Shown one piece after another: positions 26,951 through 31,067 of a stretch of 64,000 nucleotides of DNA (position 1 is its first letter; every line of letters starts with the position of its first letter). This DNA comes from an uncultured archaeon. GTDB lineage: Archaea; Aenigmatarchaeota; Aenigmatarchaeia; CG10238-14; SCSR01. The translations under genes were made by a program, and so were the position numbers. The notes below the pieces were generated by a model. It saw only the letters and a list, made by a program, of their open reading frames with translations. It was not told the origin of the DNA and did not search any database. The DNA lies in contig CAYJQI010000001.1 of NCBI GenBank assembly GCA_964372485.1, positions 192,001 through 256,000 on the forward strand. Reading direction: 5' to 3'.

Positions 26951-29656
26951 TTATTGAATCTTTAAATTACTTTGGTAATATGTGAGTGTTTTGAACCTTT
27001 CCCCATTAGAACTAAATAAAAGTTCTCCTTGGCAATTTGCACATTTACCCATCAATGGAATTCTTCTGTAAGATTTGTTACAGGATTTGCATGAGAATTC
27101 ATCGAAATTTTCTGTTGTTTCTTTTATTCCATTGGTATTATTTTTGAAAAGATCTTTTAGAAGTGTCTGTCGTCCTATTCCCATAAGTTCTGATTTACTT
27201 ATTCCTAAAACTTCGAAAACTCTTTCCAATGGTGGAAGGATTTGATTTTCAACATAGTACTTGGAATCTATTGGGATTTTGTTTTTCTTCACATATTCAG
27301 GATCTTCTGCTCTCTCAGAAAGCAGTTGCATGCCTTTAGTTATAACAAAGCTCACTCGATCACCAACACTCGGAGCAACTCCTTCTCTCTTCTTCAATTT
27401 TTTCACCAATTCAACATGAGGTTGAATTCCTTTATATGCACTGATAGATTTGGAGATACTCTTTGTTATTATAAGATCCTCAATCACTGTATCGTTACTT
27501 TCCAATTTCTGGAGATAGTCTTTAACAAAAGCGAATGCTTTCTTTGGATCTTGTTCCTTTAACAAAATATTTAGAACTTCATAGAGTGTTTTTGTTGCGG
27601 CATTACACCAATCTCTTCGAACAGTTTCAATACCTTTCATTACCATTTCTTCTTTCCATTCATCTCCTGATTTTTCATATGTTAATCCTGCATAACGTTT
27701 CTTGGAAAGAATAAGAAGAGATTTGAAAACTTTTTCTATTTTTAGTTGAATTATTCCCGTAAGTTCTTCATTGACAAGAGATTCCAGATTTCTTCCAATC
27801 TCATATGCTTTTTCAATATCTTTCGTTTTCACATCGACCATTATAGAATCTGTATCACCATAGACAACAGAATACCCGGATTTTGTTTCAATAATTTCCT
27901 TTGTCCTATTTATCAAAAATCTTCCACATCCTGTTATTGTATTTGCAATTTCGAGAACGTACAATCGTGCTCTTAGATATCCCGTATATCCGTAGAATGC
28001 ATTGGTCATTATTTTTAGTGCAATTTGTTTAGCTTCCAAAACACGTTTAACATCATTATCAGAACTCTTTTTTGCCTGTGAACGAACTTTATCTCGTTCG
28101 TTAATTAAATGTTTGAGAATATTTGGAAGTATTCCTTCCTTTTTAGTTTTCGCTATGAATTTTGTACCATAAGGTGTTGTTATTACATCTGTCGACGTTT
28201 CATCTTTCATCAAAAAAGTAGTTGGACAAATATTGTAGGCGATAAAAATTGATGGGTACATTGATTTGAAATCAAGATAAACTACAGAATCTGTATGTAG
28301 TCCAACTTTTGGATCAAGAACTAATGCACCTTTCAACTCCTGTTCTTCATTTTCCTCGGTAAATGCCGATTCATTATGTCTGGAGGGAAGTACGTAATCG
28401 TTTTTATTAAATTCTCTCAATAATAAATTCTCTACTCGTTGTGCTTCACCGCCATCAAGACAATCTTGTAAAAGTATACCTGATACTTTACTAAGTTCGA
28501 AGAATTTATCGAGAAGATTTTTCTCTATGACAAGACGTAATGCCAATACAGAATCTTTTTCAGCATATTCAACAAGTCGATTAATTTGGTCGTGTGAACC
28601 ATGCCAATGTCCAAATATTTCACCATGTGCAATATCTATTTTCTGATCATTCAATAATTCTCGTGACACATCTCCCAGACCTAGTCGTTTTAATTTGAGA
28701 TTTCCTTTACGGATTGATTCTTTGATGAGTTCGTACGCATCAACAATAATTCTCCCTGTTATTGAATTCTTGTAATAATTTCCGATTTTTCGCGAGATGG
28801 ATGGTTTTTGATTACATCTACCAATCATTGTAGATAAATCATTCTCTCGAAGTCTATCCAAGAGATATGGAAAATCAAAATTGTTTATGTTATATCCCAC
28901 GAGTATATCAGGATCATAACTATCCAATACTTTAAGAAATCCTTTCAACATTTCCTTTTCGTTTGTATAAACATTTACATTCTTTCCATTCTTAGGAAAG
29001 ATTTTCGATACAAGTATCAAAGATTTTTGAGAATTGAAACCATGGCTGAATGTTAAACTAATCATTCCTATTATATCCTTCTTAGAATCTGGTAAGCCGG
29101 CTTGTGATATAGTTTCTATATCAACTGATAATGATTTCATATTTGTATTTTCTAAGTTTTCCAACTCTGTAATTTCATTTGATTCTAGGGTGAATGAACA
29201 TTTGACTGTTGTTGTACGGGATTGGTTACCTTTTGCACGATACCATCGAAACCCGAAAATATTATTATCTGCCATAAATCGATATTTGAAAAGGATATCT
29301 GCTTCGTAAATATTATCAACTACTTTCTCTCTTTGCAGAGTATCTCTTACCTCCGGTACCCGAGAGGGATCAGTTAAAGTTATTTTCAATACATTTGTTT
29401 TTTCTGTTTGATATCCGATAGGTTGATATTTTTGAGAATTCTCTACTTTTAGAATTAAATTGGGAAATTTTTTGCGCAAATAAGTTTCGAATGTTAGCTC
29501 AAACCCTTTCTTCGGAATAAGATAGAAATATGGATAAAAATTTTTAACAAAAACACAGGCCGATTTGTTATCTTTTGTCACACCGAAGAGTCTAACAACT
29601 GGGGCATTTCCCAGCATAATATAGTCGCAATCTAGAAGTTGAAATTCGAGTTCCAT
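26951..29656 (-). CDS. polB: Family-B DNA polymerase with a C-terminal C4 zinc ribbon
   Basis: ExoI SVDIETIS, ExoII YNINNFDFPYL, ExoIII YAEKDSVLAL. Motif A LDFKSMYPSI, motif B KIMTNAFYGYTGY, motif C VVYGDTDSI. C-terminus is CKSC-x12-CANC (nt ~27030-27095). Confidence 0.95.
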   Translation of the reverse strand: MELEFQLLDCDYIMLGNAPVVRLFGVTKDNKSACVFVKNFYPYFYLIPKKGFELTFETYLRKKFPNLILKVENSQKYQPIGYQTEKTNVLKITLTDPSRVPEVRDTLQREKVVDNIYEADILFKYRFMADNNIFGFRWYRAKGNQSRTTTVKCSFTLESNEITELENLENTNMKSLSVDIETISQAGLPDSKKDIIGMISLTFSHGFNSQKSLILVSKIFPKNGKNVNVYTNEKEMLKGFLKVLDSYDPDILVGYNINNFDFPYLLDRLRENDLSTMIGRCNQKPSISRKIGNYYKNSITGRIIVDAYELIKESIRKGNLKLKRLGLGDVSRELLNDQKIDIAHGEIFGHWHGSHDQINRLVEYAEKDSVLALRLVIEKNLLDKFFELSKVSGILLQDCLDGGEAQRVENLLLREFNKNDYVLPSRHNESAFTEENEEQELKGALVLDPKVGLHTDSVVYLDFKSMYPSIFIAYNICPTTFLMKDETSTDVITTPYGTKFIAKTKKEGILPNILKHLINERDKVRSQAKKSSDNDVKRVLEAKQIALKIMTNAFYGYTGYLRARLYVLEIANTITGCGRFLINRTKEIIETKSGYSVVYGDTDSIMVDVKTKDIEKAYEIGRNLESLVNEELTGIIQLKIEKVFKSLLILSKKRYAGLTYEKSGDEWKEEMVMKGIETVRRDWCNAATKTLYEVLNILLKEQDPKKAFAFVKDYLQKLESNDTVIEDLIITKSISKSISAYKGIQPHVELVKKLKKREGVAPSVGDRVSFVITKGMQLLSERAEDPEYVKKNKIPIDSKYYVENQILPPLERVFEVLGISKSELMGIGRQTLLKDLFKNNTNGIKETTENFDEFSCKSCNKSYRRIPLMGKCANCQGELLFSSNGERFKTLTYYQSNLKIQ

Positions 29657-29664
29657 ACCCTTAG

Positions 29665-30753
29665 TTATGAAAGGTCAATTTTAAATGTTTCTCGCGTTTT
29701 TAGATTTATATTCCAGAAAATAGGATTTTTGTTCAAATTTCCAGTGGAAATTATTGTAGTTCCTTTATAGTTAGTTGCAAAAGGCGTTGATCCTCCGATT
29801 GATATTATATCTGGGACATTTTCTAGGAGAAATGAATTGTTGTAAGATGTTGACGTTAAGATCGGATTTAGGTTTCGCTTTTTTACAAGGTTTACGACTG
29901 CAGTTTCGGGAGAAGTTTTCCATATGTCAGAATATTTGGTTAAAAAATCGCCACGTGTTTGAAAAACTAATATATTATCCATTTTCGATGTTTGAGAAGC
30001 ATTTGATAAAAGATGAATACGATGTTTGATATCTGATAAAAGTTTGTTTGCATCATCTACACTCTCGGACATACCTCCTAGGACAAAAATCTCAGCATTT
30101 TTTTGCTCATTTATTATTTCAATTAATTTTTTGTAACGATTTTCATTGAATTGCGGAGAATCTATGTGAAGATCTGATAAAAAAATGTAATTTTTTTCTT
30201 CGTTGATTGTTGTAAAGTCCTTTTTTAGAGGTATATCCGGATATACTACATCTATGATATTCGGAATAGTACCACTGTATTCACAAACCACGCCAATTAT
30301 GTCATCTTCAACTAAAAATTTTGATAAATTGGACGAAATTTTAAAATTTACACTTCCTGTTTTATCTTCTAAGATTACACTTTCGCCATTATTTTCAACA
30401 ACAGCCCCAATAACCGAGAAATTTTTCAATTTTTCTGTAATTTTGTTAATCGATACTAAATTTTTGAGATCTTCCTTCTCAATTAGGAGGTTAGTGATAA
30501 CTTCATAGCGATGACTCAACACTTCTGAGAGTTGGTTGACTGATACTATAGTTTTTTTGGGTTCTATAAAGGATTTTATAAAGTCCTGAGTGATAACTGG
30601 AGGTAATTTTTCCTTGCCTAAGCTCAATATAGTGTCTAAAACTGTAGGATTATCTGATAAAAGTTGTAAGGCGTCAGCATCTACCTGTGCACCATATGAT
30701 AGAAAGGTTCGAAGGATTGTAGATTTGTCCATATTAACGGTAAAGGCTTTCAT
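29665..30753 (-). CDS. DP1/B-subunit-like protein with an OB fold and a degenerate calcineurin-like phosphoesterase domain
   Basis: N-terminus ILRTFLSYGAQVDADALQLL resembles the DP1 N-terminal domain. OB-like VIGAVVENNGESVILEDKTGSV. PDE motif I is kept (FLSDLHID), but GDxxD is GGMSESVDD, GNHD is LSNASQ, and GHxH is GGST. 362 aa; ends 8 nt before the polB start. Confidence 0.55.
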   Translation of the reverse strand: MKAFTVNMDKSTILRTFLSYGAQVDADALQLLSDNPTVLDTILSLGKEKLPPVITQDFIKSFIEPKKTIVSVNQLSEVLSHRYEVITNLLIEKEDLKNLVSINKITEKLKNFSVIGAVVENNGESVILEDKTGSVNFKISSNLSKFLVEDDIIGVVCEYSGTIPNIIDVVYPDIPLKKDFTTINEEKNYIFLSDLHIDSPQFNENRYKKLIEIINEQKNAEIFVLGGMSESVDDANKLLSDIKHRIHLLSNASQTSKMDNILVFQTRGDFLTKYSDIWKTSPETAVVNLVKKRNLNPILTSTSYNNSFLLENVPDIISIGGSTPFATNYKGTTIISTGNLNKNPIFWNINLKTRETFKIDLS

Positions 30754-31067
30754 CTTCTTAAGGTATACACCACTAAACCGTCTTTACTCTCTGATTTGGA
30801 ATGTGGTAGTTGGACCGCCTGTATTTTACCTATTTCAACCAGCTCTTGAACATATTTTTGAACAGTGTTCCAACTTATCTCTCGGTTTAGAATTTTTGAA
30901 ACATCTTTCGAGATTGTAGATATTGTTATTGGTGAACCGAACCTAGATAGTGTGTCGACTATTTCTTTCTGTACATCACGTCGCATGTTAGGTCGGCCTC
31001 GTTTCATATCTAATTCTTTTATGAAATGTTTTTTATAAACTTTCTTACATTTTCCCAGAACTTTCAA
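30750..31067 (-). CDS. Small winged-helix DNA-binding protein, first gene of the polB operon
   Basis: RRDVQKEIVDTLSRFGSPITISTISKDVSK..ISWNTVQKYVQELVEIGKIQAV (HTH plus wing). Stop overlaps the DP1-like start (4 nt). An alternative start exists at 31007 (MKRGRP). Confidence 0.5.
   Translation of the reverse strand: MKVLGKCKKVYKKHFIKELDMKRGRPNMRRDVQKEIVDTLSRFGSPITISTISKDVSKILNREISWNTVQKYVQELVEIGKIQAVQLPHSKSESKDGLVVYTLRR

What the first reader, a model, noticed from the sequence alone, without database searches (positions are those of the whole stretch)
26951..31067. Eukaryote-like arrangement: active PolB ending in a zinc ribbon, co-operonic with an inactivated DP1/B-subunit-like protein and a small wHTH
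Three minus-strand genes are tightly linked by a 4-nt overlap and then an 8-nt gap: a wHTH protein, a 362-aa DP1-like protein, and PolB. PolB keeps all exonuclease and polymerase motifs and carries an extra C-terminal CKSC-x12-CANC module. The DP1-like protein has a DP1-type N-terminus, an OB-like segment and a calcineurin-type phosphoesterase domain. In that domain only motif I (SDLHID) survives; the GDxxD, GNHD and GHxH positions read GGMSESVDD, LSNASQ and GGST, predicting loss of nuclease activity. No DP2 gene is adjacent. In eukaryotes, the B-family catalytic subunits bind inactivated DP1-derived B subunits through C-terminal Cys-rich modules. An archaeal PolB plus zinc module plus inactive B-subunit operon would be a striking parallel or intermediate. 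I do not recognise it as a described complex.
Basis: partly seen in the sequence, partly recalled or inferred. Interest (0 to 1): 0.75.

Follow-up and report, generated by a model that had tools for sequence, protein, structure and literature searches.

The report
Aenigmatarchaeal PolB with inactive DP1 partner
This is the replicative DNA polymerase operon of an Aenigmatarchaeota (DPANN) archaeon, in which an active family-B polymerase carries the zinc module of the PolD large subunit and sits next to a catalytically dead DP1 subunit; it is a real eukaryote-like arrangement, but it was described in 2020 and its subunit interaction was tested in 2025.

Summary
Three tightly linked minus-strand genes encode an 85-aa winged-helix protein, a 362-aa DP1/B-subunit homologue and a 901-aa PolB.

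- **PolB:** it is most similar to Pol delta and keeps all exonuclease and polymerase motifs. It ends in one Cys4 module whose best matches among solved structures are the Zn-III motif of PolD DP2.
- **DP1-like protein:** it folds as N-terminal helical domain, OB fold and phosphoesterase domain, and its best structural match is P. abyssi DP1. It keeps only 2 of 8 catalytic ligands.
- **Family:** none of 116 short family members keeps all 8 ligands.
- **Synteny:** DP1-like then PolB is conserved in 29 of 29 Aenigmatarchaeota loci.

Kazlauskas et al. 2020 (PMC7544198) defined "B6-aenigma1" PolB plus inactivated DP1 with DP2 absent. A 2025 paper (PMC12680538) reported yeast two-hybrid and AlphaFold3 evidence that the two proteins interact.

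I found no mention of three further points in the text of either paper:
- The wHTH gene is a conserved first gene of the operon, in 24 loci.
- Five divergent loci carry Orc1/Cdc6 with ORB-like inverted repeats at that position.
- The wHTH-type loci carry a conserved array of 21-22-nt repeats next to an AT-rich tract upstream.

The absence of DP2 from the whole genome could not be tested here.

The parts
26951..29656 (-). PolB catalytic subunit (901 aa), group B6-aenigma1 / Pol-delta-like, with intact 3'-5' exonuclease and polymerase motifs
   Evidence: Pfam DNA_pol_B scores E=3e-119 and DNA_pol_B_exo1 scores 4e-40. The best PDB hit is the human Pol delta catalytic subunit 6s1m_A, E=8.7e-111, with all motifs aligned. 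Identity to orthologues in 29 Aenigmatarchaeota loci is 40-70%.
27146..27169 (-). PIP-box-like motif QTLLKDLF (aa 830-837) between the thumb domain and the zinc module
   Evidence: Read from the sequence. The pattern G[KR]Q..L..[LAI][FIL] is conserved in alignment A7. It aligns with the C-terminal tail of archaeal PolBs. PCNA binding is an inference.
27032..27091 (-). C-terminal Cys4 zinc module (C856, C859, C872, C875), homologous to Zn-III of the PolD large subunit DP2
   Evidence: NCBIfam DP2 models match aa 853-882 with E=1.6e-5. A profile of 16 orthologous CTDs hits DP2 6knb_B residues 1127-1159 with E=2.7e-7 and 6hms_B with E=7.5e-6, sharing C..CN..YRR.PL.GKC..CGG. The four Cys are invariant.
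29665..30753 (-). Inactivated DP1 / B-subunit homologue (362 aa; alternative start at 30732). Domains: N-terminal helical domain (aa ~10-63), OB fold (aa 111-170; nt 30244-30423), degenerate phosphoesterase domain (aa 188-360; nt 29674-30192)
   Evidence: NCBIfam NF003118 scores E=5e-30. The AF2 model has pLDDT 90.5. Foldseek top hits are P. abyssi DP1 (E=1e-20), followed by the Pol epsilon, delta and alpha B subunits. It keeps 2 of 8 catalytic ligands.
30750..31007 (-). 85-aa winged-helix protein with an N-terminal MKRGRP (AT-hook-like) motif; first gene of the operon
   Evidence: Orthologue alignments A3 and A5. The family has 424 members, and nearly all of the 120 listed are 85-88 aa (a few are up to 107 aa). 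All but one of those that carry an organism name are Aenigmatarchaeota; P0223 is named Methanomethylicia. The AF2 model has pLDDT 87.5 with H1-H2-H3 and a beta-wing. Foldseek returns only generic wHTH regulators. The gene lies directly upstream of the DP1-like gene in the window and in 23 loci.
31026..31045 (-). Putative archaeal BRE/TATA promoter (AAGAAAGTTTATAAAAA), about 28 nt upstream of the wHTH ATG
   Evidence: Sequence. The block GAAAGTTTATAAAA is conserved in the window and L001-L003. Promoter function is inferred.
31254..31333 (-). Array of four direct repeats at 22-nt spacing (TATGAATCTTCCAA, TATGAACTTTCCAA, TGTGATATTTCAAA, TGTGAAGATTCCAA), followed by an AT-rich tract (~31100-31170)
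   Evidence: The pattern TRTGAANNTTCCAA has 3 exact matches, all here and none elsewhere in the 64 kb. The array is conserved in L001-L003. A 21-22-nt periodicity is seen in about half (at least 9) of the 20 wHTH-type regions examined.
31329..31730 (-). Conserved 133-aa protein of unknown function (possible winged helix), upstream neighbour in wHTH-type loci
   Evidence: Alignment A4. A weak profile hit to the Cullin WH-B domain, E~0.1. Present in 21 loci.
31786..32463 (-). Conserved 225-aa calcineurin-type metallophosphoesterase; a neighbour in both locus types
   Evidence: Pfam Metallophos_3 scores 1e-14 and Metallophos scores 7e-14. PDB 2yvt scores E=5e-8. It is 37-73% identical in 24 loci (at least 51% in all but L028), which makes it more conserved than the DP1-like gene.

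Best explanation
[quoted passage not shown] It is a two-subunit, eukaryote-like holoenzyme that has replaced PolD.

- **Catalytic subunit.** The 901-aa PolB is Pol-delta-like. It polymerises and proofreads with its own exonuclease domain.
- **Docking module.** The extra C-terminal Cys4 module derives from the Zn-III/CTD of the PolD large subunit DP2. It serves as the docking element for the 362-aa DP1 homologue encoded 8 nt upstream. This parallels how DP2 binds DP1, and how the Pol alpha, delta and epsilon CTDs bind their B subunits.
- **Second subunit.** The DP1 homologue keeps the N-terminal helical domain, the OB fold and the phosphoesterase fold, but it has lost 6 of 8 metal and catalytic ligands. 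It is a non-catalytic scaffold. It probably tethers the polymerase to GINS/CMG through its DP1N-like domain.
- **Clamp contact.** A PIP-like box in the PolB linker probably contacts PCNA.
- **wHTH protein.** The 85-aa wHTH gene is the first gene of the same transcription unit. It most likely encodes a DNA-binding protein that recognises the conserved 21-22-nt repeats upstream. This could be operon autoregulation or origin-associated binding.

**Shown here:** the homologies, the loss of catalytic residues, the fold and the conserved synteny. **Shown in the literature:** the DP1 / PolB-CTD interaction, and the absence of DP2 in the phylum. **Inferred:** the scaffold, GINS and PCNA roles, and the role of the wHTH protein.
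For: - **PolB:** Pfam and NCBIfam hits. The best PDB hit is Pol delta, with every exonuclease and polymerase motif aligned.
- **CTD:** matches to DP2 models. A profile hits DP2 Zn-III with E=2.7e-7, including the non-Cys residues YRRxPLxGKC. The Cys4 motif is invariant in 16 of 16 orthologues.
- **DP1-like protein:** NF003118 E=5e-30; PDB DP1 E=1.7e-5; AF2 pLDDT 90.5; Foldseek to DP1 E=1e-20 with TM 0.69, followed by eukaryotic B subunits.
- **Inactivation:** alignment A1. In a census of 116 short family members, none has 8 of 8 ligands, the window protein has 2 of 8, and canonical DP1 controls have 8 of 8.
- **Synteny:** DP1-like is directly followed by PolB in 29 of 29 Aenigmatarchaeota loci, with gaps of 1-54 nt where both genes are complete.
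- **Literature:** PMC7544198 and PMC12680538, including yeast two-hybrid and AlphaFold3 for the interaction and the absence of DP2. DP1N-Gins51C binding in T. kodakarensis is from PMC9023282 (abstract).
Against: - Absence of DP2 and of other PolBs from this particular genome was not tested. Only 64 kb of a ~791-kb contig is in hand.
- The CTD is short. PMC12680538 calls it 'degenerate', with a predicted structure that differs from DP2CTD.
- Some family members keep 6 of 8 ligands, so residual activity in some lineages cannot be excluded.
- The GINS and PCNA contacts rest on analogy only.
Confidence: 0.85

Rival explanations
1. The DP1-like gene is a decaying relic of a lost PolD. It has no present function, and the PolB zinc ribbon is an unrelated generic zinc ribbon (for example for DNA binding).
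For: Only 2 of 8 catalytic ligands remain, and there are large deletions in the motif II and III regions. The DP1-like protein is the least conserved protein of the cluster, at 25-45% identity against 40-70% for PolB.
Against: The gene is an intact ORF in 29 species. It has invariant non-catalytic residues such as NYKGTT, PD and R..E. The fold is predicted with confidence, pLDDT 90.5. Its position immediately upstream of PolB is strictly conserved. The zinc module matches DP2 Zn-III in non-Cys positions as well. Yeast two-hybrid interaction is reported in PMC12680538.
Confidence: 0.04
2. A canonical PolD (DP2, possibly with a second active DP1) exists elsewhere in this genome. The protein here is a paralogous, regulatory DP1 copy rather than the B subunit of the main replicase.
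For: Genome-wide absence of DP2 could not be tested here. PMC7544198 says DP2 is absent in 'most', not all, sequenced Aenigmarchaeota.
Against: There is no DP2 in the 64-kb window or in the +/-8-kb flanks inspected. PMC12680538 states that Aenigmatarchaeota lack DP2 while retaining DP1. The homology search found canonical-length DP1 only as distant hits from other lineages, one of them named Woesearchaeota.
Confidence: 0.07
3. The 85-aa wHTH protein is a third structural subunit of the polymerase, analogous to the winged-helix N-terminus of Pol delta p66/Pol32 that binds p50. On this view it is not a DNA-binding regulator.
For: It is co-operonic and possibly translationally coupled with the DP1-like gene, with gaps of 0-69 nt or an overlap, in 24 loci. 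The fold is a winged helix.
Against: The Foldseek top 50 are generic DNA-binding wHTH regulators, with no p66/Pol32 and E no better than 2e-3. The N-terminal KRGRP AT-hook-like motif suggests DNA binding. Five lineages have the same DP1-like/PolB pair without it. A conserved repeat array upstream offers a DNA target.
Confidence: 0.12
4. The intergenic region upstream of the operon is the chromosomal replication origin. In wHTH-type lineages the small winged-helix proteins (wHTH85, perhaps with orf133) have displaced Orc1/Cdc6 as the origin-adjacent initiator module, as with WhiP or iteron systems.
For: There is a mutually exclusive pattern at one locus. The window plus 23 loci have orf133, a repeat and AT-rich spacer, and wHTH. 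Five loci have Orc1/Cdc6 (Pfam Cdc6_lid and Cdc6_C, confirmed for L026 and L028), and in L025 and L027 it is preceded by inverted ORB-like repeats flanking an AT-rich tract. Direct repeats of 21-22 nt next to an AT-rich tract are conserved across species. Precedents exist: oriC-orc1/cdc6-DP1-DP2 in Pyrococcus (PMC10989965), and a non-Orc1 initiator at one Sulfolobus origin (PMC3607249).
Against: wHTH and orf133 show no homology to Cdc6. It is unknown whether these genomes encode Orc1/Cdc6 and a canonical origin elsewhere. GC skew in the window is uninformative. The promoter-proximal inverted copy overlaps the TATA box, and the repeats could simply be operators.
Confidence: 0.15

Closest known systems
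Aenigmarchaeota 'B6-aenigma1' PolB plus 'Aenigma_GB_GCA_002789635-like' inactivated DP1 (Kazlauskas et al. 2020, PMC7544198); called the PolB-DP2CTD/DP1 complex in PMC12680538 (2025)
   Same: Same phylum. PolB is Pol-delta-like. There is a single C-terminal Cys4 motif closest to DP2 Zn-III. The DP1 homologue has a destroyed active site. No DP2 is nearby.
   Different: Nothing essential differs; this is another member. Three details were not found in the text of those papers by keyword search: the strictly conserved wHTH-DP1-PolB or Cdc6-DP1-PolB gene order, the graded decay of the DP1 site (6 of 8 down to 0 of 8 ligands), and the upstream repeat array.
Eukaryotic Pol delta, alpha and epsilon catalytic subunit CTD bound to the B subunit (e.g. 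POLD1-POLD2, PDB 6tny, 3e0j, 4y97, 5vbn)
   Same: A B-family catalytic subunit with a C-terminal Cys-rich module, and an OB plus inactive-phosphoesterase B subunit. These are structural matches with E=1e-15 to 1e-10. The PolB core is closest to Pol delta.
   Different: There is only one Cys4 motif (CysB / Zn-III-like), not CysA plus CysB, and there is no Fe-S-type motif. The CTD is much shorter. No third or fourth subunit homologues were detected. The genes are organised as an operon.
Archaeal PolD (DP1-DP2), e.g. P. abyssi 6hms, 6t8h, 9f2a
   Same: The DP1-like protein shares the fold and domain order of DP1. The PolB tail shares the Zn-III sequence of DP2. The gene order second-subunit then catalytic-subunit, preceded in five loci by orc1/cdc6 (with ORB-like repeats in two of them), mirrors the Pyrococcus oriC-cdc6-DP1-DP2 operon.
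   Different: The two-barrel DP2 catalytic core is replaced by a PolB. DP1 nuclease ligands are lost, so proofreading must come from the PolB exonuclease domain.
Baldrarchaeia PolB3-DP2CTD plus DP1 (PMC12680538)
   Same: PolB fused to a DP2-derived CTD, DP2 lost, DP1 retained, and interaction shown by yeast two-hybrid.
   Different: The Baldrarchaeia CTD is longer and resembles the DP2 and eukaryotic CTDs more closely. The aenigmatarchaeal CTD is described as shorter and degenerate. The lineage is different (Asgard rather than DPANN).

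Membership tests
B6-aenigma1 PolB / PolB-DP2CTD with inactivated DP1 (Aenigmatarchaeota replicase) | B-family polymerase of the Delta-like clade with intact exonuclease and polymerase motifs | tested here: met
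   Best PDB hits are the Pol delta catalytic subunits (E=8.7e-111). ExoI-III, motifs A-C and KxY all align. Pfam hits. No phylogeny was computed.
B6-aenigma1 PolB / PolB-DP2CTD with inactivated DP1 (Aenigmatarchaeota replicase) | [quoted passage not shown] | tested here: met
   One CxxC-x12-CxxC motif. NCBIfam DP2 models score E=1.6e-5. The CTD profile hits DP2 Zn-III in 6knb_B with E=2.7e-7. The Cys are invariant in orthologues.
B6-aenigma1 PolB / PolB-DP2CTD with inactivated DP1 (Aenigmatarchaeota replicase) | A DP1 homologue (OB plus phosphoesterase fold) whose catalytic motifs are lost | tested here: met
   Fold match to DP1 with E=1e-20. The protein keeps 2 of 8 ligands, and none of 116 family members keeps 8 of 8.
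B6-aenigma1 PolB / PolB-DP2CTD with inactivated DP1 (Aenigmatarchaeota replicase) | Aenigmatarchaeota origin | tested here: met
   All close homologues that carry an organism name, and all 29 related genome loci with a named organism, are Candidatus Aenigmatarchaeota MAGs. The window's own record name was not retrievable.
B6-aenigma1 PolB / PolB-DP2CTD with inactivated DP1 (Aenigmatarchaeota replicase) | DP2 catalytic subunit absent from the genome | tested here: inconclusive
   There is none in the 64-kb window or in the flanks of the 29 loci. The rest of the ~791-kb contig could not be read. The literature states absence for the phylum.
B6-aenigma1 PolB / PolB-DP2CTD with inactivated DP1 (Aenigmatarchaeota replicase) | Physical interaction of DP1 with the PolB CTD | not testable with these tools
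Yeast two-hybrid and AlphaFold3 results are reported for Aenigmatarchaeota proteins in PMC12680538. Conserved adjacency in 29 of 29 loci is indirect support.
Eukaryotic-type replicative PolB holoenzyme (Pol alpha, delta, epsilon) | A CTD with two Cys-rich motifs (CysA and CysB) | tested here: not met
   Only one Cys4 motif is present in the last 100 residues of the window protein and of 15 orthologues.
Eukaryotic-type replicative PolB holoenzyme (Pol alpha, delta, epsilon) | A non-catalytic B subunit with OB fold and inactivated phosphoesterase domain | tested here: met
Canonical archaeal PolD | A two-double-psi-beta-barrel DP2 catalytic subunit paired with a nuclease-active DP1 | tested here: not met
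   No DP2 core is adjacent; only its Zn-III motif is present, fused to PolB. The DP1 active site is lost.

The most novel reading that the evidence does not exclude
In most Aenigmatarchaeota, the origin-proximal orc1/cdc6 gene that precedes the DP1-PolB operon has been displaced by small winged-helix proteins. The displaced arrangement is still seen in five divergent loci, two of which (L025, L027) have ORB-like inverted repeats. The replacing proteins are the 85-aa wHTH and perhaps the 133-aa neighbour. They come with an array of 21-22-nt direct repeats and an AT-rich tract. On this reading the wHTH is an origin-binding or initiator-like factor (WhiP- or iteron-like), or else a third polymerase subunit, rather than a plain transcriptional regulator.
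Probability: 0.15. Interest if true: 0.7.

Novelty: already known. Interest (0 to 1): 0.3.

Why it matters
The arrangement is one of the few archaeal examples of the eukaryotic design for replicative polymerases: a B-family catalytic subunit tethered through a DP2-derived zinc module to a dead DP1-type B subunit. It therefore bears on how Pol alpha, delta and epsilon arose. That significance has already been recognised and partly tested in the literature (PMC7544198, PMC12680538), so this window adds another member rather than a discovery.

Three side observations made here could be useful to specialists:
- The strictly conserved gene order [wHTH or Orc1/Cdc6]-DP1-PolB resembles the Pyrococcus oriC-cdc6-DP1-DP2 operon. 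This supports replacement of the DP2 core by PolB in place.
- The DP1 active site shows graded decay across the family.
- A conserved repeat array with an AT-rich tract lies upstream of the operon. It may mark an origin or an operator.

Tried and rejected
1. **Complex prediction.** I built a fused chain (wHTH-linker-DP1-linker-PolB CTD) with a paired alignment of 16 species.
2. **wHTH as a remnant of the Orc1/Cdc6 winged-helix domain.** BLASTP, hmmsearch and hhalign gave no signal, with probability below 1%. Rejected.
3. **wHTH as a Pol32/p66N-like subunit.** The Foldseek top 50 contain only generic wHTH regulators. Not supported.
4. **Profile searches of wHTH and orf133 against PDB sequences.** There were no hits for wHTH. 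For orf133 there was only a weak Cullin WH-B hit, E~0.1.
5. **Orc1/Cdc6 or DP2 elsewhere in the window's genome.** The homologue list for Cdc6 was saturated by close type-B relatives. No hit shared a contig length with the known wHTH-type contigs. The encoding-contig look-up returned only a 2.3-kb Logan contig. The cluster look-up gave no accession.
6. **Supplementary tables.** None are held for PMC12680538, and those for PMC7544198 were uninformative.
7. **GC skew as an origin indicator.** It is noisy and uninformative over 64 kb.
8. **Rfam.** Only one tRNA was found in the window.

Full report
**1. What is in the sequence**

Three minus-strand ORFs occupy 26951..31067: a 901-aa protein (26951..29656), a 362-aa protein (29665..30753) and a small protein (30750..31067 if started at TTG).

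Two coordinate corrections follow from comparison with orthologues.
- The small gene almost certainly begins at the ATG at 31007, giving 85 aa starting MKRGRP. All 19 aligned orthologues have the conserved Met (Ile in L011) followed by K/R-R/K-G-R at that position. The public gene call is 85 aa. A conserved GAAAGTTTATAAAA block, a plausible BRE/TATA, lies about 28 nt upstream, inside the TTG extension.
- Orthologues of the 362-aa protein align from its M8. The overlap could therefore be a 17-nt gap, although the public call uses M1.

The window has ~34% G+C. Nearly all close homologues that carry an organism name are Candidatus Aenigmatarchaeota, a DPANN lineage.

**2. PolB**

Pfam gives DNA_pol_B with E=3e-119 and the exonuclease domain with E=4e-40. 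The best solved-structure matches are the human and yeast Pol delta catalytic subunits (E=8.7e-111 and 9e-102), ahead of the Thermococcales PolBs. The printed alignment shows ExoI (DIET), ExoII (GYNINNFDFPYL), ExoIII (YAEKDS), motif A (LDFKSMYPS), motif B (KIMTNAFYGYTG), motif C (YGDTDS) and KKRY, all intact.

After the thumb domain come three elements:
- a PIP-like box, QTLLKDLF (aa 830-837);
- a variable linker;
- a single Cys4 motif, C856-x2-C859-x12-C872-x2-C875, whose Cys residues are invariant in 16 of 16 orthologues.

NCBIfam DP2 (PolD large subunit) models match aa 853-882 with E=1.6e-5. A profile of the 16 C-terminal regions finds DP2 Zn-III as its best hits in the PDB: T. kodakarensis 6knb_B residues 1127-1159 (E=2.7e-7) and P. 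abyssi 6hms_B (E=7.5e-6). The match extends to non-Cys positions, with [24 protein letters not shown] against FSCKSCNKSYRRIPLMGKCANCQG. This is specific homology, not a generic zinc ribbon.

**3. The 362-aa protein**

NCBIfam DP1 models hit with E=5e-30, and P. abyssi DP1 chains with E=1.7e-5. An AlphaFold2 model built on 26 family members is confident (pLDDT 90.5). It shows an N-terminal helical domain, a long helix, an OB barrel (aa 111-170) and an alpha/beta sandwich (aa 188-360).

Foldseek against the PDB ranks P. abyssi DP1 first (E=1e-20, TM 0.69). The next hits are the B subunits of Pol epsilon, Pol delta (6tny_B, 3e0j) and Pol alpha (4y97).

Aligned with canonical DP1s, only motif I (S-D194-L-H196) survives. 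The GDxxDG region carries a ~19-residue deletion, the GNH[DE] segment is deleted, the motif IV His is gone, and GHxH reads GG-ST.

I counted the eight Mre11-type ligands over the 120 best homologues:

| Group | Ligands retained |
|---|---|
| Canonical-length DP1 (3 of 4) | 8 of 8 |
| Short family members (116) | none has 8 of 8 |
| Best short members (11 sequences, DHDEIHHH; the motif III Asn-His pair is lost) | 6 of 8 |
| Window protein | 2 of 8 |

The family is thus a series of progressively decayed phosphoesterase sites on a well-kept fold.

**4. Synteny**

A scan of one genome per species found 29 loci, and every named one is an Aenigmatarchaeota MAG. In 29 of 29 loci the DP1-like gene is directly followed by PolB. 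The gap is 1-54 nt wherever both genes are complete.

The loci fall into two types.
- **Type A (23 loci plus the window).** The 85-aa wHTH gene lies directly upstream, with a gap of 0-69 nt. Further upstream lie a conserved 133-aa protein and a 225-aa metallophosphoesterase.
- **Type B (the five most divergent loci, L025-L029).** These have neither the wHTH gene nor the 133-aa gene. Instead a ~400-aa homologue of the L026 Orc1/Cdc6 gene (54-92% identical) ends at, or within ~30 nt of, the DP1-like start. Pfam Cdc6_lid and Cdc6_C hits of E~1e-25 to 1e-29 confirm this for L026 and L028. In L025 and L027 that gene is preceded by long inverted repeats flanking an AT-rich tract, for example TTTCCACAAGAAACAATGGGGTGGG. 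From my own knowledge these look like ORB elements.

This mirrors the Pyrococcus oriC-orc1/cdc6-DP1-DP2 operon (PMC10989965). It fits a scenario in which the DP2 core was replaced by PolB in place, with the 3' Zn-III segment retained.

**5. The wHTH protein and the upstream region**

The family has 424 members, and nearly all of the 120 listed are 85-88 aa. All but one of those that carry an organism name are Aenigmatarchaeota. The AF2 model (pLDDT 87.5) is a canonical three-helix winged helix. Foldseek returns only generic DNA-binding wHTH regulators such as Fur/Zur, PadR and MarR, with E no better than 2e-3. It returns no Pol32/p66.

The protein has no detectable homology to the Cdc6 winged-helix domain. 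Its invariant N-terminal MKRGR(P) resembles an AT-hook; that resemblance is my own knowledge and is only a lead.

The 262-nt spacer upstream (31068-31328) holds four direct repeats at 22-nt spacing. The pattern TRTGAANNTTCCAA occurs three times exactly, and only here in 64 kb. An AT-rich tract follows.

The array is conserved in position in L001-L003. Repeats with a 21-22-nt period recur in about half (at least 9) of the 20 type-A regions examined (19 loci plus the window), sometimes in inverted orientation.

The simplest reading is that the wHTH protein binds these sites and regulates its own operon. A more novel reading is that this region is the replication origin and that the small winged-helix proteins have displaced Orc1/Cdc6 there. 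A non-Orc1 initiator is known at one Sulfolobus origin (PMC3607249). I could not find out whether the genome has orc1/cdc6 elsewhere.

**6. Comparison with what is known**

The arrangement is published.

Kazlauskas et al. 2020 (PMC7544198):
- They describe PolB group B6 in Aenigmarchaeota with C-terminal metal-binding motifs. [quoted passage not shown]
- They note that DP2 is absent in most Aenigmarchaeota.
- They define an 'Aenigma_GB_GCA_002789635-like' DP1 clade that is inactivated.
- They propose that DP2 was replaced by this PolB and that DP1 was already inactivated in archaea before eukaryotes inherited it.

PMC12680538 (2025):
- It reports AlphaFold3 models and yeast two-hybrid assays in which DP1 binds the PolB-DP2CTD fusion but not canonical PolBs.
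- It calls the aenigmatarchaeal CTD shorter and degenerate.
- It shows that the two-motif 'B6-aenigma2' sequences were Baldrarchaeia contamination.

The window meets every testable defining feature of this system. It fails the eukaryotic criterion of two Cys motifs. It is not a canonical PolD.

Keyword searches of both papers found no mention of an operon or adjacency for these genes, or of a winged-helix partner. The synteny, the wHTH/Cdc6 alternation and the repeat array may therefore be additions. They are context, not the finding itself.

**7. Mechanism**

PolB synthesises and proofreads. Its DP2-derived Zn module docks the dead DP1-type subunit. That subunit acts as a scaffold, plausibly linking to GINS through its DP1N-like domain, by analogy with T. 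kodakarensis (PMC9023282). The PIP-like box plausibly binds PCNA.

The homologies, the loss of catalytic residues, the fold and the synteny are shown here. The interaction and the DP2 loss come from the literature. The scaffold, GINS and PCNA roles and the wHTH role are inferences.

**8. Verdict**

Interest for a scan is therefore low to moderate. The residual value lies in the operon and origin context.

Noticed in passing
window 31068-31333 (minus strand); also L001 7405-7735, L003 7415-7494, L010, L011, L012, L017, L020 intergenic regions: Four direct repeats at 22-nt spacing (TRTGAANNTTCCAA; exact matches occur only here in 64 kb) are followed by an AT-rich tract, between the 133-aa gene and the wHTH gene. 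Repeats with a 21-22-nt period (unit ~TTTTTATGAAnTTTC) recur at the same place in about half (at least 9) of the related regions examined. This is either an operator array or an origin-like element.
   Followed up: partly
L025-L029 (e.g. L026 6787-8001; L027 6578-6606 and 6700-6728; L025 6619-6642 and 6709-6732): In the five most divergent Aenigmatarchaeota loci, an Orc1/Cdc6 gene replaces the wHTH gene directly upstream of the DP1-like/PolB pair. In L025 and L027 it is preceded by 24-29-nt inverted ORB-like repeats (TTTCCAnnAGAA...GGGGT) flanking an AT-rich tract. This is a likely oriC next to the replicase operon, as in Pyrococcus.
   Followed up: partly
window 31786-32463 (-): A 225-aa calcineurin-type metallophosphoesterase (Metallophos_3; PDB 2yvt-like) is a conserved neighbour in both locus types. 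It is 37-73% identical (at least 51% in all but L028), more conserved than the DP1-like gene. In the window its motif I reads SCIHGD (Cys where Asp is usual) and its motif III reads GSWD. Any functional link to the dead DP1 nuclease is unknown.
   Followed up: partly
window 31329-31730 (-): A conserved 133-aa protein of unknown function is found only in wHTH-type loci. It has a weak profile similarity to the Cullin WH-B winged helix (E~0.1). Its stop codon overlaps the first repeat unit.
   Followed up: partly
L013 6852-7079, L018 604-837, L019 7468-7701, L021 5873-6100, L004 7055-7318(-): Some relatives carry a second, divergent paralogue of the 85-aa wHTH gene between the 133-aa gene and the main wHTH gene.
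   Followed up: no
window 32501-32827 (+), 36042-38252 (+), 48969-50078 (-): Other DNA-metabolism genes lie nearby. An Hjc Holliday-junction resolvase sits next to the phosphoesterase gene on the opposite strand. There is also a Hel308-like helicase (DEAD plus archaeal helicase domain 4) and a DHH/DHHA1 protein that could be a GAN/RecJ-type nuclease.
   Followed up: no
window 21-2081 (+), 2497-4497 (+), 4537-7092 (+): There is an RHS-repeat protein (686 aa). Two large ORFs (666 and 851 aa) have no Pfam hit at E<=1e-5.
   Followed up: no
window 60259-60342 (-): This is the only Rfam hit in the window: one tRNA spanning 84 nt against a 71-position model, so it has a long variable arm or an intron.
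   Followed up: no
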